Below, one piece after another: positions 4,852-17,863 of a stretch of 36,243 nt of DNA. The stretch comes from Candidatus Komeilibacteria bacterium. Its GTDB lineage: Bacteria; Patescibacteriota; Patescibacteriia; UBA1558. Below the pieces are notes generated by a model. That model was not told the DNA's origin. It saw only the letters and a program-made list of their open reading frames with translations, and did not search any database. How positions within the stretch are numbered: the first letter of the stretch is position 1; every line of letters begins with the position of its first letter. The translations under genes were made by a program, and so were the position numbers. Location of the stretch: positions 1 to 36,243 of the forward strand of contig JBLYPW010000001.1 of NCBI GenBank assembly GCA_048538275.1, given 5' to 3'.

Positions 4852-7098
4852 TTAGCGTCTAGATCTATAATTATCACGTCCGCCTTGTCTATTATTGTGG
4901 TGGGAGCTGCGGGGATTATTATGCCCGTGCTTCTCTTGTCCGGGACTGGCAGGGGGCATATATTCTTTATGAGAGAGTCCAATGCGCCCTCTTTCTTCAT
5001 CCACTTCAACTACTTTGACTTTAATTTTATCACCAATTTTGACTATGTCCGATACTTTAGCTACGTGTTCATTGGACAAATTAGAAATATGTATCATACC
5101 GTCTTTATTGGGCAGGATTTGTACAATAGCTCCAATTTCATTGCCTCTATTACGGTCAGTCATGATTTGAATCACTTCGCCTTCGTATTCTTCACCGACT
5201 TTTACTTTTTTAGTAATACCCTTGATAATGTCAATGGCTTTTTCTGCTCCGGCGGCGTCGGTAGAGGTTATCAATACTGTGCCATCCTGTTCAATATCAA
5301 TTTCCACACCGGTTTTTTCAATAATTTCATTGATGATTTTACCGCCCGGCCCGATGACGTCACGAATTTGTTCTGGGTCAATGTGTAAAGTTTCAATGCG
5401 GGGCGCGTATTTGGAAAGCTCTGTACGTGGTTGGTCAATAGCTTGAGTCATGACGTCAAGTATTTTTTCGCGAGCTATTTTCGCTTTGTCTAGAGTCTCG
5501 CTAATCACTTTTGGAGAAATGCCATTCAGTTTGATATCTAGTTGCAAAGCAGTAATGCCGTCTTTAGTACCAGCTACTTTAAAGTCCATATCGCCGGCAT
5601 GGTCTTCAAATCCCTGAATGTCAGTCAATACGCGATAATCCTCAGTGTTTTTGGGGTTGGTAATCAGACCCATGGCAATACCAGCAACAGCTTTTTTAAT
5701 TGGTATGCCGGCGTCCATTAAAGCTAGAGTAGAGCCACAAATAGAAGCTTGTGAAGAAGATCCATTAGAGGACATTACCTCGGATACTACGCGAATAGTA
5801 TAAGGAAAGTCTTCTTTGTCTGGCAAGACTGGCACTAAAGCTTTTTCTGCTAGGGCGCCATGACCAATTTCGCGACGGTTTGTAGAGGCGGCGCGTTTTA
5901 CTTCACCCACCGAATAGCCGGGGAAATTATAATGATGCATATAGCGTTTTTTTGTCACTCCTTCGTCTTCTATGTTATCTAAATATTGTTCTGCGCCTGG
6001 CCCAGCTAAAGTAACAATGGATAGCACTTGAGTTTCCCCTCTGGTAAATAAGCCACTGCCATGGGTGCGAGGCAAAATACCAACTTTGGCATCAAGCGGA
6101 CGAACATCGTCATAACCACGACCATCCACACGGGTGCCAGCTAAAGTTAGGTCGCGCGCTGCTTCATCAATGTGTTGGTTGAGCATGGCCACGCCCTGGG
6201 CGCGTTCTTCTTTATTGATTTCATTATCTGCTTTTAAGATTTCGTCTAGACCATTTTTCAGATTCTCAATATTGGTTTTGAGTTTAGATTTATCAGCAGC
6301 AAATAATTTAGTTAAATCATGTTGTGTTAAGTATTCTTTTACTTTGTTTTTAATCTTGTCTTGGATTGCCACCTCTTCATCACTTAGGTCAATAGTTGTG
6401 CTTTGTTTTTGTTTGCCAGCAGCCTTTACTACCTCATTGATTAAATCAATGGCTGTACCAATGTGTTTGTGGCCAAAGGCAATAGCAGCGGCTGCGTCAG
6501 CTTCTTTGATTTCTTTAGCGCCAGCCTCTATCATCACCACCTGTTCTTTACTGCCGACCACTATTAAATCCAAATCACTTTTATCCAGCGCTTCATAGGT
6601 TGGATTAAGCACCCATTGATTTTCAATGCGGCCTACTTTCATACCAGCCACTGGTCCGTTCCAAGGCATCGGTGACATTGCTAAGGCACAAGAAGCGGCT
6701 ATTAAAGCGGGCATATCTGGATCATTTTGTTGGTCTAGAGACAATACTGTAATAGTCACCTGTACTTCACGTCTTTCCTCCTCTGAAAATAGCGGGCGGA
6801 TAGAGCGGTCAATCAGGCGCGCGGTTAGCACCGCTTCTTCAGAAGGACGACCTTCGCGTTTAATCCAACGACTGCCTTTGATACGCCCGGCGGCATAAAA
6901 TTTTTCTTCATAATCAACAGTCAAAGGGAAAAAATCTTGTCCCTCTTTTGGTTTGTCGGAAGCACAAGCGGCAGCCAAAACAACGGTGTCGCCATAACGC
7001 ACCGTGCAAGAGCCACCGGCTTGACCGGCGAGCAAACCCGTTTCAATGGTGAGAGTGCGGCCAGCAATCTCACGGGTAAAAGTTTGTACATTAAACAT
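4852..7098 (-). CDS. pnp: Polyribonucleotide nucleotidyltransferase (PNPase)
   Basis: DFFPLTVDYEE, RLIDRSIRPLF, HGSGLFTRGETQ, RREIGHGALAE and GDMDFKVAGT motifs; KH (VIGPGGK) and S1 domains. Confidence 0.98.
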   Translation of the reverse strand: MFNVQTFTREIAGRTLTIETGLLAGQAGGSCTVRYGDTVVLAAACASDKPKEGQDFFPLTVDYEEKFYAAGRIKGSRWIKREGRPSEEAVLTARLIDRSIRPLFSEEERREVQVTITVLSLDQQNDPDMPALIAASCALAMSPMPWNGPVAGMKVGRIENQWVLNPTYEALDKSDLDLIVVGSKEQVVMIEAGAKEIKEADAAAAIAFGHKHIGTAIDLINEVVKAAGKQKQSTTIDLSDEEVAIQDKIKNKVKEYLTQHDLTKLFAADKSKLKTNIENLKNGLDEILKADNEINKEERAQGVAMLNQHIDEAARDLTLAGTRVDGRGYDDVRPLDAKVGILPRTHGSGLFTRGETQVLSIVTLAGPGAEQYLDNIEDEGVTKKRYMHHYNFPGYSVGEVKRAASTNRREIGHGALAEKALVPVLPDKEDFPYTIRVVSEVMSSNGSSSQASICGSTLALMDAGIPIKKAVAGIAMGLITNPKNTEDYRVLTDIQGFEDHAGDMDFKVAGTKDGITALQLDIKLNGISPKVISETLDKAKIAREKILDVMTQAIDQPRTELSKYAPRIETLHIDPEQIRDVIGPGGKIINEIIEKTGVEIDIEQDGTVLITSTDAAGAEKAIDIIKGITKKVKVGEEYEGEVIQIMTDRNRGNEIGAIVQILPNKDGMIHISNLSNEHVAKVSDIVKIGDKIKVKVVEVDEERGRIGLSHKEYMPPASPGQEKHGHNNPRSSHHNNRQGGRDNYRSRR

Positions 7099-10212: not shown

Positions 10213-11211
10213 ATGTCACCAGAACAAGAATTTAAATTTCAACCCTCCATAACTGAAGAGTCAGAAAATTTGATTAATGATTCGGCAAAACAACAGAACA
10301 TTACTTCCAAAATTGAGCAATTTTATAAAAAACCTGTGACTGAAGAAGAGTTGGTCAAAAACATTAGAATATTAAAAGAAATTCCTGAAGATGTAAGCGA
10401 TCCAAAAGTTGTTATCAAATTAGGTTCGCCAGATAGGGCACACAAATTTGTGTTTATGGAAGATGATAGCGGACGACAATACGTGATTGCCTTACCGATA
10501 GAAAAGAAAGCGTTTCATCGCGATATTGCAAACTTTTCAAGAAAATTATATCAAAAAAATTTGCAAGTCATAGGAGGAGGATATATCCATCGCGATGGTG
10601 ACAATCTTGTGGTAGATGGAACGTCTGGTGATTATGGTGAAGCGCCAAAAGAGATAGTTCGGGACATATTGAAAAAGAAATTTCCTGATTTGAATATTGA
10701 AGTTTTTGCTCTTGAAGACCATGATCAAGTGAATAAGGAAGAAGAGCTACAAAGAAAACTAGAAAGCTTGAAAACGACAGTGCAGAAAGAGCTTTATACT
10801 GATGTATTAAATAAGGCGGTTAAGCTGGGCTGTGATTATACAAGATTGCCAGAACAAATCGCGAACAAGGATGATTTAGCCTATATGGTTTATTCTAGTG
10901 AAAATGGATCAAGTTTTGGATTTGATACTCTTTACTTAGGTTACCAGGATAAGAATCAAGAGATAAAAAGTAAGGCTGTTTTAAGGGAAAGAGGTTATAT
11001 TCATGTTAATCAAGTGGATTTGCAAGACGATCAAGTATTTTTTACATATAGGGTGGCTGGTGAAGAAAAAAAATTAGCAATTTCTTTAGATAAAATCGAA
11101 CAATTTGAAACTATAACAAATTTGGATGATACTGAAAAACAGTTATTGCAAATGTATCAAGATATGAAAGGAGCGTTTGCTAATGCGAACGTGTATCATG
11201 GTATTGGATAA
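10213..11211 (+). CDS. Protein with a Janus/Ocnus (PHPT1-like phosphohistidine phosphatase) domain at about aa 65-165 and an unknown C-terminal domain
   Basis: KFVFM...FHRDI...IGGGYI...VDGTSGDYG.A...ILKKKFPD parallels PHPT1 KYVLI...YHADI...LGGGRI...VYGYSMAYG.A...IKAKYPD (recalled sequence). Confidence 0.65.
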   Translation: MSPEQEFKFQPSITEESENLINDSAKQQNITSKIEQFYKKPVTEEELVKNIRILKEIPEDVSDPKVVIKLGSPDRAHKFVFMEDDSGRQYVIALPIEKKAFHRDIANFSRKLYQKNLQVIGGGYIHRDGDNLVVDGTSGDYGEAPKEIVRDILKKKFPDLNIEVFALEDHDQVNKEEELQRKLESLKTTVQKELYTDVLNKAVKLGCDYTRLPEQIANKDDLAYMVYSSENGSSFGFDTLYLGYQDKNQEIKSKAVLRERGYIHVNQVDLQDDQVFFTYRVAGEEKKLAISLDKIEQFETITNLDDTEKQLLQMYQDMKGAFANANVYHGIG

Positions 11212-12617: not shown

Positions 12618-12747
12618 GCCCTCGTAGTTTCCGCCTCCGACAGATCTCCCGCAGGGAGATGAAGTCCGATTCACTAGCCCTCGTAGTTTCCGCCATAGGC
12701 GGACCAGCCTCTGGCTGGCAAAGTCCGATTCACTAGCCCTCGTAGTT
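12618..12747 (+). repeat. Two 59-nt tandem units, each starting with the tRNA-Arg(TCT) 5' end
   Basis: GCCCTCGTAGTT at 12618, 12677 and 12736; each unit is GCCCTCGTAGTTTCCGCC + 26-nt variable hairpin + AAGTCCGATTCACTA. Confidence 0.9.
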
Positions 12748-12810
12748 CAAAGGATAGAACAACGGCCTTCTAAGCCGTGGATCTAGGTTCGATTCCTAGC
12801 GAGGGTACCA
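12736..12810 (+). tRNA. tRNA-Arg(TCT)
   Basis: GCCCTCG...ACGGC-CT-TCT-AA-GCCGT...GGTTCGATTCC...CGAGGGT-ACCA. Confidence 0.95.
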
Positions 12811-12969
12811 TTTTGCAGTCAGGCATTGCAATTATATATTTCTAAACCAGTTAGCAATATTACGTTTAAGCAGATTTGTCTGCTCATTGCATGCTTATTA
12901 CTTTTTTTCTCGCCAAGCTAGAAAATAAGTGACTCGTATATTTATTAGAAAAGAAAGGATTAATTTATT

Positions 12970-13296
12970 ATGTCAGATAATAAAATAGAGACAATAGACA
13001 ATGCAGCACCGGTGAGCTATGTGGAATTACCACCCATGAAGGATATTGTCCGGGAAAAGTTACAAGAGTTTGTTAGTAAAAGTGGTCTGCGTGATTGGGC
13101 CAATAAAGATGATGCCGGCAAAGAGTTGTTTTATGATTTTATTCGTACGGCTTATGACCACGGCGACTTGAATATAGCAGCAGATGAGTTTGCTCAGGCA
13201 GTACGTAGTAGCAATGATGAAGTTGCGGCCGAGCAGATTGAAGAATTTTATCAAAAATACCACAAAGGTATAGAGATATTGCTTTTAAGAATATAG
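12970..13296 (+). CDS. Hypothetical acidic helical protein
   Basis: 108-aa ORF with AAAGGA RBS. Confidence 0.65.
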   Translation: MSDNKIETIDNAAPVSYVELPPMKDIVREKLQEFVSKSGLRDWANKDDAGKELFYDFIRTAYDHGDLNIAADEFAQAVRSSNDEVAAEQIEEFYQKYHKGIEILLLRI

Positions 13297-13305
13297 TACT
13301 TACAT

Positions 13306-13381
13306 GGTGGCTATGGTGTAACGGTTAACACAGCGGTTTGTGGTACCGCTAATGAGGGTTCAATTCCCTCTAGCCACCCCA
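13306..13381 (+). tRNA. tRNA-His(GTG), G-1 encoded
   Basis: GGTGGCTA...GCGGT-TT-GTG-GT-ACCGC...GGTTCAATTCC...TAGCCACC-CCA. Confidence 0.95.
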
Positions 13382-13384
13382 GTT

Positions 13385-13411
13385 AAAAAGCAGCTATTTT
13401 AGCTGTTTTTT
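13385..13411 (+). terminator. Terminator after tRNA-His
   Basis: AAAAAGCAGCTA-TTT-TAGCTGTTTTTT. Confidence 0.75.
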
Positions 13412-13431: not shown

Positions 13432-13460
13432 TTGACATTTAAGGCCTGTGGACGTAAGAT
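13432..13460 (+). promoter_or_regulatory. Promoter of the RiPP locus
   Basis: TTGACA-17-TAAGAT upstream of the precursor RBS. Confidence 0.55.
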
Positions 13461-13509
13461 TTTAATATAGCTATTTAACAAACAAAACAACAGAAAAGAG
13501 GTGAGAAGC

Positions 13510-13653
13510 GTGAAAAAAAACAGTACACCCAAGCCATTGATTTTGGACTTGCGCCAACCAATAGAAGACATCTATAAAGGTGGTGAAAAAGCTATGGAGG
13601 GGTTTACCACACATGGTACTCCCAATGATCCAGATAGTGGTGGAACAGATTAA
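13510..13653 (+). CDS. Putative graspetide (ATP-grasp RiPP) precursor, 47 aa: MKKNSTPKPLILDLRQPIEDIYKGGEKAMEGFTTHGTPNDPDSGGTD
   Basis: GAGGTG RBS 6 nt before GTG; KPLIL leader-like motif; T/S/D-rich C-terminal core; immediately upstream of the ATP-grasp gene. Not in the supplied ORF track. Confidence 0.75.
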   Translation: MKKNSTPKPLILDLRQPIEDIYKGGEKAMEGFTTHGTPNDPDSGGTD

Positions 13654-13656
13654 TGC

Positions 13657-13682
13657 AAAAGGAGGTGTAGCCACCTCCTTTT
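13657..13682 (+). terminator. Stem-loop between precursor and ATP-grasp gene
   Basis: AAAAGGAGGTG-TAGC-CACCTCCTTTT. Confidence 0.7.
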
Positions 13683-13710
13683 CTATTCTGAAAATTATAG
13701 AATTAAGGAG

Positions 13711-14646
13711 GTGGGTATGATACTCATTATAGGTAACGATAGAGATGGAACTGATAAGGTTTACGATTTTATAAATAGTGAATCTGATCAGCGTGTTGTT
13801 AAATATGACGCTAGGTCATGTTTGGATACAGACTTTATTACAATTTCATTTGAAGACAATGAAATGACACTCAATGTTAAGAATGCAAATGAAGTTATAA
13901 GCTCAGAAGAAATTGATAAGGTGTGGTTTTGGAAGCCAATACTTCCAAAGGGATTAAGATCTGTAGAGCCGCATGAGGATGCCGTTTATATTCATAGGCA
14001 GTTTATTGCATTGTGGCGCGCTATACCATTTATTTTGCGTGATGCAAAGATGTTTAATGGATACATAGAGTCTCTCATTGCTGAGAATAAGCCCTATCAA
14101 CTTAGTTTGGCATCTGATCTCGGGTTTAAGATTCCTCGCACACTTATGACATCTGATCCGGAAAGTTTAGAAAAGATGTGGGAATCATCAGATGATGAGC
14201 TTATTATAAAGACATTGTCTTCGACTCTTAGTGACAAACATGTTCTGTTTGCACATAAGCTTGATGAAAGTCTTTATGAGCAAAGAGATAGAATTAGATC
14301 ATCACCAAGTATATTTCAGCAATTGGTAGACAAGGTGTACGATATGAGAGTTACCATTGTTGGAGATTTGGTGTTTGCTGTTAAGGTGGTGACAGAAAAG
14401 AAACTGGATTGGCGTTCAGGTAAAATGGATCTAGAAGTAATCAATCTTCCAGATGAAATTGCCCAAATGTGTGTACAGCTAGTAAAGTCATTGAAATTGA
14501 ATTATGGCAGTATAGATCTGAGTTTGGACAAAAAGGGAAATTATTACTTTCTGGAAATTAATCCTAACGGGCAGTATAGATTTGTTGAGGAGAAAACAAG
14601 CCTGCCAATAAGTGCAGCAATTGCACAATACATCATTAGTATGTAA
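13711..14646 (+). CDS. ATP-grasp peptide maturase (MvdC/MvdD-like, RimK superfamily)
   Basis: AENKPYQL.LA...GF.IP.TL.T, IIKTLS, P.IFQ..V...YDMRVTIVG, LDWR, YG.IDL and FLEINPNGQY motifs. Confidence 0.88.
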   Translation: MGMILIIGNDRDGTDKVYDFINSESDQRVVKYDARSCLDTDFITISFEDNEMTLNVKNANEVISSEEIDKVWFWKPILPKGLRSVEPHEDAVYIHRQFIALWRAIPFILRDAKMFNGYIESLIAENKPYQLSLASDLGFKIPRTLMTSDPESLEKMWESSDDELIIKTLSSTLSDKHVLFAHKLDESLYEQRDRIRSSPSIFQQLVDKVYDMRVTIVGDLVFAVKVVTEKKLDWRSGKMDLEVINLPDEIAQMCVQLVKSLKLNYGSIDLSLDKKGNYYFLEINPNGQYRFVEEKTSLPISAAIAQYIISM

Positions 14647-14649
14647 AAT

Positions 14650-14676
14650 AAAGGAGCTCGTAAGGGCTCCTTTTTT
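14650..14676 (+). terminator. Terminator after the ATP-grasp gene
   Basis: AAAGGAGCTC-GTAA-GGGCTCCTTTTTT. Confidence 0.75.
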
Positions 14677-14697
14677 GACGACTATTTATATATAACT

Positions 14698-15228
14698 ATG
14701 AAAAATAAGCAATTAATTGAATCAATTACCAAGAGAGCTAAAGCAGATCAAAAGCTCAGAGCTAGGGTACAAAAAGGCGGCATAACAAATAAAGAGTGGA
14801 ATAAGGTGTTAAAGTTGGATGAACAGAATATAAAATTTGTTAAAAAAACCATAGATAAATATGGTTGGCCAACTTTTGACTTAATTGGTAAAAGAGCCTC
14901 CCATTATTTTTGGTTACTAGTTCAGCATGCTGACAAGGATATAAAACTACAAAAGAAAGCCCTTCAATCACTTAAGGAAGAGGTTTCTCGTGGCCAGGCC
15001 TACGCTAGAAATTTTGCCTATTTAACGGATAGAGTTTTAACAGCAGAATCTAAAAAACAGGTATACGGTACACAGTTCATTGTTAAGGGGAAAAAATTGG
15101 TTGTTAAACCTGTAAGAAATATGAAAAAAGTGAATCAACTAAGAAAGTCTGCTAGCCTAACTCCTTTAGGGGTAGCAACAAGAAAGATAAATAAGGAGTA
15201 TAGTGGGTTCTTAAGGGGTAGAAAGTAG
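14698..15228 (+). CDS. DUF6624-like protein
   Basis: DQ..R, I..YGWP, WLLVQHAD, AYLTDR and Q.YGTQF motifs. Confidence 0.7.
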   Translation: MKNKQLIESITKRAKADQKLRARVQKGGITNKEWNKVLKLDEQNIKFVKKTIDKYGWPTFDLIGKRASHYFWLLVQHADKDIKLQKKALQSLKEEVSRGQAYARNFAYLTDRVLTAESKKQVYGTQFIVKGKKLVVKPVRNMKKVNQLRKSASLTPLGVATRKINKEYSGFLRGRK

Positions 15229-15690: not shown

Positions 15691-16059
15691 ATGAAGATAT
15701 CTCCGGATAAAATATATTTAGCCAAATCACCACTCGGTGGACGGGGCATGTTTGCCAGGGTGGATATCAAGAAAGGCCAGGTTGTGGAGACCGCGCCTTA
15801 TGTTTTGGTTGATAAAGATGATTGCACTTGTGCTTTGGCAGACTATAAATTTGCCCATAGCAAAACCAAGGAGCTGGTTTGTTTGGGTTATGGTGCTATG
15901 TATAATCATGCTAAGCGGCCAAATTTGGAACATAGATACTCTAATCGTTTTAAAAATTGCTTGGATTTTATTGCTTTGCGTGATATTAAGTCAGGCGAAG
16001 AGTTGTTGGTCAGTTATGGCGATGATTGGTGGGCGGAGCGTGGTAAAAAAGAATTATAA
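15691..16059 (+). CDS. SET domain protein-lysine methyltransferase
   Basis: S..GGRGMFA..DI.KG, YNH...PN and ALRDI.SGEEL..SYG motifs. Confidence 0.92.
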   Translation: MKISPDKIYLAKSPLGGRGMFARVDIKKGQVVETAPYVLVDKDDCTCALADYKFAHSKTKELVCLGYGAMYNHAKRPNLEHRYSNRFKNCLDFIALRDIKSGEELLVSYGDDWWAERGKKEL

Positions 16060-16122: not shown

Positions 16123-16622
16123 TCAAAATTTATTATCTGCCAAAATCTCTTTGGTAGAGCGACTATGTTTAGCCATAGCGGCGGCTTCCTGATATAATTG
16201 CGCCTTGCTTTTTTTTATCCACCCCTGACCACTTCTGAATTTATAGCTCATCTGGTTAAACGGCCAGAGCCATTGTACGCCGTCAAAGTTTTTGTCGATG
16301 GTGTCATGAACAAGGTGAAAAAATATAGCGCAAGTTGTGAGCAGGCCAAACCCAGTTCCTAGATACCAGGCGCTAGTTAAATAAACAATTAGCAATGCTG
16401 GTAATGGTTTGTGAAACCAGAATTTATGAGTATAGGAACGCTCATCTAGTAAAGAGTTTAATTGGAACTTTTTCTCTTTTTTGACGTAGCTGCGCCACAG
16501 TTCATTGAAGACGATGTCGCTGTCCAGAATGAAGGCCGCCAGCAATACCCATAGGGAGTTAAGGCCATAATTGCCGAGCAGGTGCCCGCCAGGCACGCTC
16601 CTAGGAGAAGATCAATGAGCAT
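16123..16622 (-). pseudogene. Membrane-bound metal-dependent hydrolase (YdjM-like) with an apparent 1-nt frameshift near 16585
   Basis: GGAAGG RBS plus ATG 16622 gives MLIDLLLGACLA in a different frame from HLLGNYG...LDSD...THKFWFH...HLVHD...GVQWLWP. Confidence 0.6.
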
Positions 16623-16894: not shown

Positions 16895-17863
16895 TTAGCT
16901 TGGGGCATGTTCATTTAAATAATTTTTTACTATCTTTTCTACTTGTTGAACATTTTCAGTGGCCATCAATTTTGCACGCAGTTCTTTGGCTCCCGGCCAG
17001 CCGGTAACATAGGCTTTGAAATGCTTTTTCATAATAGCAAAGTTTTTATGTTGACCAAGTAGTTTGTCATATAGCTTAGTATGTTCTAGCAGGACTGTTA
17101 GTTTTTTCTTTAGTGAGATGTCAGTGTGGTTTATTTTTTTATTGAAAAGCCAAGGGTTACCAAAAACAGCTCTACCGAACATGATGCCAGCAGCGCCAGT
17201 GATGTTGGCCTTGGCACGTGCATCATCTAAATCTTTGACATCGCCGTTGCCGATTATTAAAACGCCACTTTTTTGGGCGATGTTCACAGCCTGTTTGATG
17301 GCATTCCAATCGGCCGGCACCTTGGACATTTGTTGGCGAGTGCGGGCGTGAATAGTGATGGCAACCGGTTTAGTTGCCAGTAGGGCGGGTAGCCAAGTTT
17401 CTAGTTCATTAGTCCGAATACCGATGCGCGTTTTGATTGACACGGGTAAATTAGCTGCCCCTTCTTTGGTAGCGGCCACTATTTCTTGCGCCAACTGGGG
17501 ATGTTGGATCAGCTCAGCACCGGCATATTGCTTTTGGATATTTTTGGCTGGACATCCCATATTGATATCTATACCATCAAAGCCCAGTTGTTTAACCAAT
17601 TTGGCTGATTCAAAAAAATTTTCCGGACGAGAACCAAAAATTTGGGCTACTATTGGGCGCTGACTGTGATCATAAATAAAATTGTGCAGCAAGGCCGGTT
17701 TGCCAGCTGAGCATAGTCCATCGCAGGAAACAAATTCTGTGAACATAATGTCCGGTTTTCCATATTTGGCTATCACGTGACGAAAAGCAGCATCAGTAAC
17801 ATCTGCCATAGGCGCTAAGGCAAAGAATGGTCGTGGTAGTTTTTGCCAAAAATTTTTCTTCAT
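16895..17863 (-). CDS. dus: tRNA-dihydrouridine synthase (Dus family)
   Basis: LAPMADVTD, AQIFG, GIDINMGCP, SIKTRIG, IHART, IGNGDV and GRAVFGNPWLF motifs. Confidence 0.95.
   Translation of the reverse strand: MKKNFWQKLPRPFFALAPMADVTDAAFRHVIAKYGKPDIMFTEFVSCDGLCSAGKPALLHNFIYDHSQRPIVAQIFGSRPENFFESAKLVKQLGFDGIDINMGCPAKNIQKQYAGAELIQHPQLAQEIVAATKEGAANLPVSIKTRIGIRTNELETWLPALLATKPVAITIHARTRQQMSKVPADWNAIKQAVNIAQKSGVLIIGNGDVKDLDDARAKANITGAAGIMFGRAVFGNPWLFNKKINHTDISLKKKLTVLLEHTKLYDKLLGQHKNFAIMKKHFKAYVTGWPGAKELRAKLMATENVQQVEKIVKNYLNEHAPS

What the first reader, a model, noticed from the sequence alone, without database searches (positions are those of the whole stretch)
13432..14676. Minimal graspetide-type RiPP locus with an unannotated 47-aa precursor in a CPR-like genome
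Seen: a promoter, a GAGGTG RBS, a GTG-start ORF MKKNSTPKPLILDLRQPIEDIYKGG-EKAMEGFTTHGTPNDPDSGGTD, a stem-loop, an ATP-grasp gene and a terminator, directly downstream of tRNA-His. Known: graspetide maturases (MvdC/D, PsnB, TgnB) bind a short hydrophobic leader motif and make ester/amide crosslinks between Thr/Ser/Lys and Asp/Glu. Inference: KPLILDL is the leader motif and TTHGTPNDPDSGGTD (4 Thr, 1 Ser, 3 Asp) is a single core. It does not match the microviridin (TxKYPSD), plesiocin (TTxxxxEE) or thuringinin (TxxTxxxExxDxD) cores, so it may give a new ring topology. No protease or transporter is adjacent; the KGG could be a double-glycine cleavage site.
Basis: partly seen in the sequence, partly recalled or inferred. 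Interest (0 to 1): 0.85.

Follow-up and report, generated by a model that had tools for sequence, protein, structure and literature searches.

The report
Graspetide peptide cassette in tiny bacterium
A very small soil bacterium carries a three-gene cassette for a ring-locked peptide: a 47-residue precursor, the enzyme that should cross-link it, and a conserved helper protein of unknown role; it is a real but uncharacterised member of a kind of peptide system already predicted in such bacteria.

Summary
The 47-aa ORF (13510-13653), a stem-loop, a 309-aa ATP-grasp gene (13717-14646) and a terminator hairpin lie just after tRNA-His.

The ligase is a graspetide macrocyclase, not RimK, LysX or GshB. 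This follows from NCBIfam, from PDB sequence hits and from a fold search.

The small ORF is a real precursor. A profile of it finds 75 peptides. In 74 non-redundant ones the leader P[FL][FLIV][LC] occurs 70 times. The core TTxGTxxDxDxxD is nearly invariant at T1, T/S2, G4 and D10.

The peptide tracks one ligase clade. All 15 tree rows with a detected peptide lie in that 18-row clade, and 0 of 131 rows outside it have one.

It is present in all 20 loci of the clade set, so the locus is not "minimal".

The KGG double-glycine idea fails. It is not conserved, the 87%-identical relative has KDG, and no C39 peptidase was found in the 99%-complete genome.

Graspetide clusters in candidate phyla, and their link with DUF6624, are already in print (Makarova 2022; Carter 2026). 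None has been characterised.

The window belongs to a 9-member sub-type with a longer linker and its last acid moved to the C-terminal Asp. Interest is moderate.

The parts
13307..13381 (+). tRNA-His (GTG), upstream neighbour. It is followed by its own hairpin and T-run at 13391-13405. It is not part of the cassette.
   Evidence: ARAGORN; Rfam; hairpin and sequence. No repeat of the tRNA 3' end elsewhere in the window.
13432..13460 (+). Promoter-like site TTGACA-17-TAAGAT, about 50 nt before the precursor start
   Evidence: 10 of 12 matches. The number of such sites in the region (3) is below the shuffle mean (6.4), so this is positional plausibility only.
13498..13503 (+). Shine-Dalgarno GAGGTG, 6 nt before GTG 13510
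   Evidence: Sequence
13510..13653 (+). Precursor peptide gene, 47 aa. Leader helix motif PLILDL is at residues 9-14, a linker at 15-32, and the core TTHGTPNDPDSGGTD at 33-47. The conserved positions are T33, T34, G36, T37, D40, D42 and D47.
13657..13682 (+). Hairpin with an 11-bp stem and 4-nt loop, then UUUUCUAUUCU. It is a likely partial terminator or stabiliser between precursor and ligase. Its 3' arm can alternatively pair with the ligase Shine-Dalgarno.
   Evidence: z -4.29. The alternative fold is (z -3.36). A hairpin at the same place is drawn in 11 of 12 related loci, with z <= -2.4 in 8.
13717..14646 (+). Graspetide ATP-grasp macrocyclase, 309 aa, with SD AAGGAGGTG at 13705-13713
14650..14673 (+). 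Terminator-like hairpin with a 10-bp stem, followed by UUUUUU
   Evidence: A similar hairpin after the ligase gene is seen in 8 of 10 related loci, with z <= -2.2 in 7.
14698..15228 (+). DUF6624 protein, 176 aa, with no signal peptide apparent. It is the conserved third gene of the cassette and its biochemical role is unknown.

Best explanation
This is a three-gene graspetide cassette.

Shown here:
- The 47-aa peptide belongs to a family of at least 75 short peptides. They share an N-terminal P-h-h-h-x-h-h leader motif, a linker, and a 15-residue C-terminal core TTxGTxxDxDxxD.
- These peptide genes sit next to one well-supported clade of MvdC/MvdD-like ATP-grasp ligases.
- That clade always also has a DUF6624 gene.

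Inferred mechanism, by analogy with solved MdnC, CdnC and PsnB complexes:
1. The ligase binds the leader helix (PLILDL).
2. It phosphorylates side-chain carboxylates of the core Asp residues with ATP.
3. It closes omega-ester rings with the Thr hydroxyls.
4. There is no conserved Lys, so no amide ring is expected.

The strictly conserved donors and acceptors are T33, T34 and T37 and D42 and D47, with D40 less conserved. This predicts two to three lactone rings in a compact 15-residue knot that ends at the C-terminus.

The hairpin after the precursor gene would give more precursor than ligase transcript. DUF6624 lies behind a second terminator-like hairpin, so it is probably transcribed at least partly on its own. 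I take it as an accessory of the system: either a binding or self-protection protein, or a processing or tailoring enzyme. The data do not say which.

Leader removal and export are unexplained. The window belongs to a 9-member sub-type. In it the leader-to-core spacing is 24-25 rather than 16-17 residues. The acid at core position 13 is Gly, and an invariant C-terminal Asp at position 15 replaces it.
For: Ligase identity:
- NCBIfam best hits are TIGR04187 (1.1e-49), MvdC (1.9e-44) and MvdD (1.9e-40), against rimK_fam 3.9e-15, LysX 5.9e-07 and glutathione synthase 0.055.
- All 6 PDB sequence hits at E <= 0.01 are graspetide ligases.
- The AF2 model has pLDDT 78.7. Foldseek lists only graspetide macrocyclases (AMdnB 1.3e-25, PruB, MdnC, CdnC, MdnB, PsnB) above rank 33, where RimK first appears at 1.7e-14.
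- The Mg/ATP motif FLEINPNGQ and a DWR motif are invariant in the 6 closest ligases and align to MdnB.

Precursor:
- phmmer of the peptide against 11,141 short ORFs of 172 loci hits 5 ORFs besides itself, all just upstream of the closest ligases.
- An HMM finds 19 ORFs at E <= 5e-11.
- The profile finds 75 peptides in 5.8 billion proteins.
- In 74 non-redundant peptides: T1 73, T/S2 74, G4 74, T5 67, D/E8 56, D10 73, D13 65 with the other 9 Gly (sub-type A), and D15 in all 9 of sub-type A. The core ends exactly 15 residues after T1 in 64.
- The 87%-identical relative differs only in the linker and at variable core position 3.

Co-inheritance:
- In a tree of 149 ligases the window falls in an 18-row clade (support 100). 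All 18 rows have DUF6624 and 15 have the peptide.
- 0 of the 131 rows outside the clade have the peptide.
- A 16th core was found by motif in L003.

DUF6624:
- Pfam 9e-20, and 15 of 15 aligned neighbours are DUF6624.
- It is the only family besides the ligase that recurs among the 20 loci (truncated copies in L093 and L095 are).
- 16 columns are invariant, mostly polar. The model is confident, pLDDT 94.3.

Print: DUF6624 is frequent in graspetide groups 18, 20, 23 and 42, and group 42 holds many candidate-phyla examples (PMC13097080, section 7).
Against: - No chemistry was seen. Ring number and connectivity are inferred from conservation only.
- All NCBIfam scores are below the curated cut-offs (169 bits against 350 for TIGR04187).
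- Core position 8 is acidic in only 56 of 74 and position 5 is not Thr or Ser in 5 of 74, so a third ring is uncertain.
- No protease or exporter is conserved in the loci, and no C39 peptidase was found in the genome. Maturation and release are therefore open.
- DUF6624 is separated from the ligase by a terminator-like hairpin.
- DUF6624 is a promiscuous domain fused to many unrelated enzymes elsewhere. Its link to the peptide rests on gene neighbourhood alone.
- The ligase genes in L083/L169 and L161 are split, and a second locus in this genome is decayed. Such cassettes are evidently lost easily.
- No RNA data were available.
Confidence: 0.8

Rival explanations
1. The locus is an inactive relic in this reduced genome. 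Both genes are open, but the peptide is no longer made, processed or exported.
For: No protease or exporter is conserved beside it. No Peptidase_C39 was found in the genome. The same genome holds a decayed second locus, a 72-aa ligase remnant plus two DUF6624 genes. Related loci L083/L169 and L161 have split ligase genes.
Against: All three ORFs are intact, with good Shine-Dalgarno sites. All family-invariant residues are kept in peptide, ligase and DUF6624. The closest peptide relative (87% identity) changes only variable positions. Contigs from two studies carry the locus with only 2 base differences in 2 kb.
Confidence: 0.1
2. It is a double-glycine-type RiPP. The leader is cut after KGG (residues 23-25) by a C39 peptidase-ABC exporter encoded elsewhere.
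For: The window peptide has KGG. About half of graspetide precursors carry a GG motif according to PMC8939145 (passage).
Against: GG at this position is unique to the window among 74 peptides. The 87%-identical relative has KDG. Peptidase_C39 was not found in the 99.24%-complete genome, while the control search hit 7 of 14 control genomes. No transporter recurs in the 20 loci.
Confidence: 0.04
3. The ATP-grasp enzyme works on something other than the small ORF (a RimK/LysX-like protein or metabolite ligase), and the small ORF is a chance reading frame.
For: The Pfam hit is only the generic RimK ATP-grasp domain (1.4e-11). NCBIfam RiPP-maturase scores are below the curated cut-offs.
Against: RiPP-maturase models score 139-169 bits against 56 for rimK_fam. 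Sequence and fold hits in the PDB are graspetide ligases first, about 11 orders of magnitude ahead of RimK. The ORF is conserved as protein in 75 peptides and co-occurs strictly with this ligase clade.
Confidence: 0.02
4. DUF6624 is only a frequent neighbour with no role in the peptide's biosynthesis, immunity or action. The working unit would be the two genes the first reader named.
For: A terminator-like hairpin separates it from the ligase in the window and in most relatives. The domain is fused to many unrelated enzymes elsewhere: among the best 120 of 227 longer proteins, 9 carry Peptidase_M19, 9 PF04187 and 9 PF01467. It has no recognisable catalytic fold.
Against: It is present in 20 of 20 loci of the clade across several phyla (Saccharimonadota, Minisyncoccota, Bacteroidota and others). 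Only it and the ligase recur. In relative G003 it is kept at 66% identity beside a different ligase and peptide at the same genomic site. Its association with four graspetide groups is in print (PMC13097080).
Confidence: 0.25

Closest known systems
Microviridin system (MdnA precursor with MdnB and MdnC ATP-grasp ligases; PDB 5ig8, 5ig9)
   Same: The ligase has the same fold and closest sequence relatives. The leader has a Pro-hydrophobic helix motif. The family's commonest form PFILxFL resembles the PFFARFL motif quoted in PMC8939145. Side-chain Thr-to-Asp chemistry is expected.
   Different: There is one ligase instead of two. There is no conserved Lys (Lys in the core in 2 of 74), so no lactam is expected. 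The core TTxGTxxDxDxxD is unrelated to TxKYPSD. Identity to the solved ligases is only 21-25%. DUF6624 is a companion gene, and no acetyltransferase or ABC transporter is present.
Graspetide clusters of candidate-phyla bacteria (ATP-grasp branches 1 and 2 of Makarova et al. 2022, PMC8939145)
   Same: Small-genome uncultured bacteria carry an ATP-grasp next to short precursors with the Phhx(1,2)h leader signature. An uncharacterised 'cluster 23' protein is encoded in the loci, with conserved His and Arg (sections 6 and 7).
   Different: I could not check whether this peptide family or this ligase clade is among theirs, because the figures and supplements were not readable. Their branch-1 signature TxxxTx(6-10)Dx(1-4)D is not met strictly by the window core. 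That cluster 23 equals DUF6624 is my guess. Many cluster-23 proteins are said to be lipoproteins, and the window's protein has no signal peptide.
RODEO graspetide groups with DUF6624 (groups 18, 20, 23, 42 of Carter et al. 2026, PMC13097080), most likely group 42
   Same: DUF6624 co-occurs with the graspetide synthetase. Group 42 is said to include many examples from uncharacterised candidate phyla and to carry proteins of unknown function (section 7).
   Different: Group membership is defined by a sequence similarity network whose data are in supplements I could not open. No member of these groups has a known ring pattern. The group-18 work concerns other enzymes (SmaO, SmaX) acting on a linear peptide (PMC12186529, passages).
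Plesiocin (PsnA2 with PsnB; PDB 7drm)
   Same: A single ligase should make only ester rings from a TT pair.
   Different: The window has N at position 7. The best-conserved acids are at positions 10 and 13 or 15, not 7 and 8. The residues are Asp rather than Glu. There is a single core rather than repeats. PsnB is a weaker hit than AMdnB, MdnC or CdnC.

Membership tests
Graspetide (omega-ester/amide RiPP) gene cluster | ATP-grasp ligase of the RiPP-maturase lineage (MvdC/MvdD/TIGR04187-like), not RimK, LysX or GshB | tested here: met
   NCBIfam gives 169, 152 and 139 bits for the RiPP maturase models against 56 for rimK_fam. All 6 PDB sequence hits are graspetide ligases. Foldseek lists only graspetide macrocyclases above rank 33.
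Graspetide (omega-ester/amide RiPP) gene cluster | Adjacent short precursor gene with a conserved leader recognition motif | tested here: met
   The precursor ends 64 nt before the ligase start. P9 is invariant and I11 and L12 are >=90% conserved. P[FL][FLIV][LC] occurs in 70 of 74. It fits the Phhx(1,2)h signature of PMC8939145.
Graspetide (omega-ester/amide RiPP) gene cluster | Core with conserved hydroxyl or amine donors and Asp/Glu acceptors | tested here: met
   T1 73/74, T/S2 74/74, T5 67/74, D10 73/74, D13 65/74 or D15 (9/9 in sub-type A).
Graspetide (omega-ester/amide RiPP) gene cluster | Side chain-to-side chain ester or amide cross-links actually formed (-18 Da each) | not testable with these tools
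   Needs co-expression and mass spectrometry.
NCBIfam TIGR04187 / TIGR04185 (MvdC) / TIGR04184 (MvdD) | Score at or above the curated cut-off | tested here: not met
   169.4 against 350, 152.1 against 425 and 139 against 475 bits. It is a relative of these families, not a member of any of them.
Microviridins (graspetide group 1) | Core with a Lys for a lactam (TxKYPSD-type) and two ligases | tested here: not met
   The window core has no Lys, and Lys occurs in the core in 2 of 74. There is one full ligase gene in the locus and one remnant elsewhere in the genome.
RODEO graspetide group 42 (Carter et al. 2026) | DUF6624 co-occurrence and origin in candidate phyla, as the text describes | tested here: met
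   DUF6624 next to the ligase. The genome is 0.89 Mb and 99% complete. Named relatives are Paceibacter, Saccharibacteria, Parcubacteria and Falkowbacteria. The text is in PMC13097080 section 7.
RODEO graspetide group 42 (Carter et al. 2026) | Ligase clusters with the group in their similarity network (alignment score 70) | not testable with these tools
Double-glycine (C39 peptidase/PCAT-processed) leader peptides | Conserved GG/GA/GS at the leader-core junction and a C39 peptidase-transporter | tested here: not met
   KGG is unique to the window and the closest relative has KDG. PF03412 was not found in the 99.24%-complete genome. No transporter recurs in the 20 loci.
Pfam DUF6624 (PF20329) | Score above the gathering cut-off over the full domain | tested here: met
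   71.3 bits against a cut-off of 27, profile positions 10-168 of 173. 15 of 15 neighbours of related ligases match.

The most novel reading that the evidence does not exclude
The window's 9-member sub-type has a longer linker, Gly at core position 13 and an invariant C-terminal Asp. It may make a ring pattern not yet seen in any graspetide, with the last lactone anchored on the very last residue. DUF6624 may be a new kind of RiPP accessory protein, transcribed apart from the ligase, that binds or processes the knotted peptide (self-protection or leader removal). In a host-dependent, reduced-genome bacterium such a peptide, for example a protease inhibitor, could act on the host or on competitors.
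Probability: 0.3. Interest if true: 0.6.

Novelty: new member of a known kind. Interest (0 to 1): 0.45.

Why it matters
Graspetides are compact, protease-resistant knotted peptides, and several are potent protease inhibitors. No cluster from the candidate-phyla bacteria has been characterised, and the role of the frequently associated DUF6624 protein is an open question stated in print in 2026.

This work gives a clean, small test case of three genes in 1.8 kb:
- a defined precursor family of 75 peptides;
- a position-by-position conservation map that says which Thr and Asp to mutate;
- a natural pair of sub-types that differ in linker length and in the place of the last acid.

It also shows that the same genomic site in a related genome holds a different ligase and peptide beside the same DUF6624. 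This hints at cassette exchange. The practical value is as a guide for heterologous expression, not as a new principle.

Tried and rejected
- Complex prediction (ligase + precursor + DUF6624, with DUF6624 as partner): verdict 'no answer', score 0.00. It is no evidence either way.
- Fold of DUF6624. Foldseek against the PDB gave nothing at E <= 0.001 (best 0.34). VIA-align wide gave a best Z of 9.4, and all hits were generic helical repeats within the noise stated for helical models. A profile against PDB sequences gave one weak hit (E 0.082, a Cas7 paralog). I also considered a link to HD-domain enzymes, because SmaX of a group-18 cluster is one (PMC12186529). I found no support.
- Expression: no RNA holder was listed. 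The contigs laid only show that the DNA occurs, nearly identical, in runs of two studies.
- Integration at tRNA-His: no second copy of the tRNA 3' end in the window. There is no clear composition step, with GC 0.35-0.38 against 0.39-0.43 nearby.
- Rfam found only the four tRNAs.
- Papers: Ramesh 2021 and Lee 2020, which define the numbered groups and their core motifs, are not held.
- 'graspetide' + 'Patescibacteria' found 0 papers. 'DUF6624' found 1 paper.
- Supplementary tables of PMC8939145 and PMC13097080 may list this very family. I could not see them.
Full report
**What is there**

In order it holds:
- tRNA-His at 13307-13381, with its own hairpin and T-run;
- a TTGACA-17-TAAGAT site at 13432-13460;
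- GAGGTG six bases before a GTG at 13510;
- a 47-codon frame ending at 13653 (one search lists the 50-codon form from 13501, whose start overlaps the ribosome-binding site);
- an 11-bp hairpin at 13657-13682 (z -4.29);
- AAGGAGGTG and an ATG at 13717 opening a 309-codon ATP-grasp gene;
- a 10-bp hairpin with a T-run at 14650-14673 (z -4.04).

The promoter match is not statistically remarkable: 3 sites found against 6.4 expected in shuffles. The genome is 0.89 Mb in 5 contigs and 99.24% complete. Its named relatives at this locus are candidate-phyla bacteria, so 'CPR-like' is fair.

**The ligase**

Pfam sees only the generic RimK-type ATP-grasp domain. NCBIfam ranks three RiPP-maturase models first: TIGR04187 at 169 bits, MvdC at 152 and MvdD at 139, each aligned end to end. 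The RimK family scores 56 bits, LysX 29 and glutathione synthase 12.5. All of these are under their curated cut-offs.

By sequence, the only solved structures matched at E <= 0.01 are six graspetide ligases. An AlphaFold model (pLDDT 78.7) finds AMdnB, PruB, MdnC, CdnC, MdnB and PsnB in every listed row above rank 33. RimK begins at rank 33, at an E-value eleven orders weaker.

The protein is a distant relative of the characterised enzymes (21-25% identity). Its nearest database neighbours are only 41-44% identical.

**The small ORF is a precursor**

I fetched 172 loci around relatives of the ligase and listed all 11,141 short ORFs in them.
- The window peptide alone finds five ORFs, each just upstream of one of the closest ligases.
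- A profile then finds 19 ORFs at E <= 5e-11.
- In the large protein collection it finds 75 peptides of 32-70 residues. Where named, they are 'hypothetical protein' of Paceibacterota, Parcubacteria or Patescibacteria.

In 74 non-redundant sequences the leader motif P[FL][FLIV][LC] is present in 70. The core is the last 15 residues in 64. Counted from the first Thr, the core columns are:

| Core position | Residue | Count of 74 |
|---|---|---|
| 1 | T | 73 |
| 2 | T or S | 74 |
| 4 | G | 74 |
| 5 | T | 67 |
| 8 | D or E | 56 |
| 10 | D | 73 |
| 13 | D | 65 |
| 13 | G | 9 |
| 15 | D | 37 |

The nine with Gly at position 13 all have Asp at 15 as the last residue. They all have a leader-to-core spacing of 24-25 instead of 16-17, and they include the window. 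I call this sub-type A.

The closest relative of the window peptide is 87% identical. It differs at five places: four in the linker and one at variable core position 3.

So PLILDL is the leader motif and TTHGTPNDPDSGGTD is a single core. The positions that matter are T33, T34, G36, T37, D42 and D47, and less surely D40. S43 and T46 are not conserved.

**Peptide, ligase and a third gene travel together**

I built a FastTree tree of 149 distinct full-length ligases. This is 161 of the 172 loci, less 12 duplicates. The window sits in an 18-row clade with local support 100.
- All 15 tree rows with a detected peptide are inside the clade, and none of the 131 rows outside has one.
- Of the three clade rows without a detected peptide, L003 has the core behind a degenerate leader.
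- L094 has no DNA upstream of the ligase.
- L095 has only 258 nt upstream, and these hold no such ORF.

All 18 rows also have a DUF6624 gene. Among 20 loci of this set, the ligase and DUF6624 are the only protein families found in more than three. The copies in L093 and L095 are cut by contig ends and are seen. In the window this gene is 14698-15228 (Pfam 9e-20). The locus is thus not 'minimal'. No protease or transporter recurs.

**What DUF6624 might be**

Fifteen neighbours align with 16 invariant columns, many of them polar: D17, Q18, R21, D41, Q76, H77, D111, R112, T125, Q126 and R149. The model is confident (pLDDT 94.3) and consists of five long helices, a beta-hairpin and short C-terminal helices.

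It has no convincing solved relative. The window's copy starts with a charged, non-hydrophobic N-terminus, so I read it as cytoplasmic.

The domain is not specific to these clusters. 227 longer proteins carry it, and of the best 120:
- nine are fused to Peptidase_M19;
- nine are fused to PF04187;
- nine are fused to PF01467;
- a few are fused to esterase, S9-peptidase or thioredoxin-like domains.

The ESM Atlas lists a 158-member actinobacterial cluster in which it is fused to DUF4135. By my recall, DUF4135 is the dehydratase part of class II lanthipeptide synthetases.

[quoted passage not shown] I cannot decide between a binding or self-protection role and a processing or tailoring role. The complex prediction gave no answer.

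**Transcript architecture**

A stable hairpin follows the precursor gene in the window. One is drawn at the same place in 11 of 12 related loci. The whole-segment z is <= -2.4 in 8 loci, -1.1 to -1.9 in three, and there is no hairpin in L022. The sequence differs each time, so it is the structure that is kept. This fits the common RiPP arrangement in which the precursor message outnumbers the enzyme message (established knowledge; inference here).

In the window, the 3' arm of this hairpin can instead pair with the ligase's Shine-Dalgarno (z -3.36). I note this but did not test it.

A second hairpin with a U-run follows the ligase gene in 8 of 10 loci, with z <= -2.2 in 7. DUF6624 is therefore probably expressed at least partly on its own.

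**Leader removal**

The KGG idea does not hold.
- GG at that place occurs only in the window peptide.
- The 87% relative has KDG.
- GG anywhere before the core occurs in 9 of 74, at different places.
- Peptidase_C39 was not found in the genome, while the control search found it in 7 of 14 control genomes.

How, or whether, the leader is removed is unknown.

**Comparison with print**

- Makarova et al. 2022 (PMC8939145; I read the abstract, passages, section 6 part 1 and section 7). They already report graspetide clusters and predicted precursors in two ATP-grasp branches made of candidate-phyla bacteria, a general leader signature Phhx(1,2)h, and an uncharacterised 'cluster 23' protein in those loci.
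- Carter et al. 2026 (PMC13097080; passages and section 7). They list 43 groups and say that group 42 includes many candidate-phyla examples and carries DUF6624.
- The window locus fits that description. The member lists are in supplements I could not open, so membership is likely but unproven.
- No paper that I could search describes the ring pattern of any such peptide.

I therefore file the locus as a new member of a known kind, with a sub-type difference that may change ring size.

**Other observations**

- The same genome has a decayed second locus: a 72-aa ligase C-terminal remnant followed by two tandem DUF6624 genes.
- In a genome of the same family (G003), the neighbour gene of the window's 12970-13296 ORF is followed by a different ATP-grasp (30-34% identity). 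A different candidate peptide lies downstream of it, and a DUF6624 66% identical to the window's follows. The peptide-ligase pair seems to have been exchanged while DUF6624 stayed.
- The locus occurs almost unchanged in contigs of soil-labelled runs from a second study.

**Verdict**

It is a real, intact, uncharacterised graspetide cassette of three genes. Confidence is 0.8 for the graspetide reading and about 0.6 that DUF6624 takes part. Interest is moderate at 0.45: it is a good experimental entry point, but neither the presence of graspetides in such bacteria nor the DUF6624 link is new.

Noticed in passing
L174 3976-5235 (= G000 contig 1, about 427,975-429,234), minus strand: A second, decayed graspetide-type locus in the same genome. 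It has a 72-aa C-terminal remnant of an ATP-grasp ligase (41% identical to the window's over residues 207-307, with a TAG upstream), followed by two tandem DUF6624 genes of 165 and 162 aa. Their usual QHxD motif is altered. No precursor-like ORF was recognised.
   Followed up: partly
L173 3193-6799 (genome G003, same family as the window's genome): This is the same genomic neighbourhood: a homologue of the window's 108-aa ORF 12970-13296 lies at 6473-6799. It holds a different ATP-grasp (333 aa, 30-34% identity). A different 42-aa candidate peptide with an IPLAFDF motif and a Cys- and Asp-rich end lies downstream of it. A 282-aa gene sits on the other strand, and then comes a DUF6624 66% identical to the window's. 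This looks like exchange of the ligase-peptide pair beside a retained DUF6624.
   Followed up: partly
window 13640-13730: Three Shine-Dalgarno-like GGAGGTG/GAGGTG copies occur. The 3' arm of the inter-genic hairpin (CACCTCCTTTT) can pair either with the upstream arm or with the ligase's ribosome-binding site. The second pairing is the minimum-energy fold of the 91-nt stretch (-27.2 kcal/mol, z -3.36). This could be a switch on ligase translation. It was not tested in relatives.
   Followed up: no
L083/L169 3001-3919 and L161 3223-3864: The ligase genes of these related loci are split into two open frames (a frameshift or an assembly error), although the precursor and DUF6624 genes beside them are intact.
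   Followed up: no
L099 4819-4968; L112 2240-6503; L013, L094, L122: Gene order and copy number vary. In L099 the precursor lies after DUF6624. L112 has two ligases and two DUF6624 genes. L013, L094 and L122 have two DUF6624 genes.
   Followed up: no
DUF6624 family at large: DUF6624 is a promiscuous domain. Among the best 120 longer proteins, it is fused to Peptidase_M19 in 9, to PF04187 in 9 and to PF01467 in 9. A few are fused to esterase, S9-peptidase or thioredoxin-like domains. An Atlas cluster of 158 actinobacterial proteins fuses it to DUF4135.
   Followed up: partly
window 12736-13381: tRNA-Arg(TCT) and tRNA-His(GTG) flank a 108-aa ORF (12970-13296) that has no Pfam match and is conserved in G003. 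Its function is unknown.
   Followed up: no
window 15691-16059, 16123-16596 (-), 16895-17863 (-), 10213-11211: The neighbours are ordinary and not conserved with the cassette: a small SET-domain protein (2.7e-15), a YdjM-family membrane protein, a tRNA-dihydrouridine synthase, and a 332-aa protein with a Janus/Ocnus-family match (1.8e-08).
   Followed up: no
window 13904 and 14917: These are the only two base differences seen in contigs of four public runs over the 2-kb stretch (C>T each). The first would change Ser63 to Leu in the ligase, by my reading of the codon.
   Followed up: no
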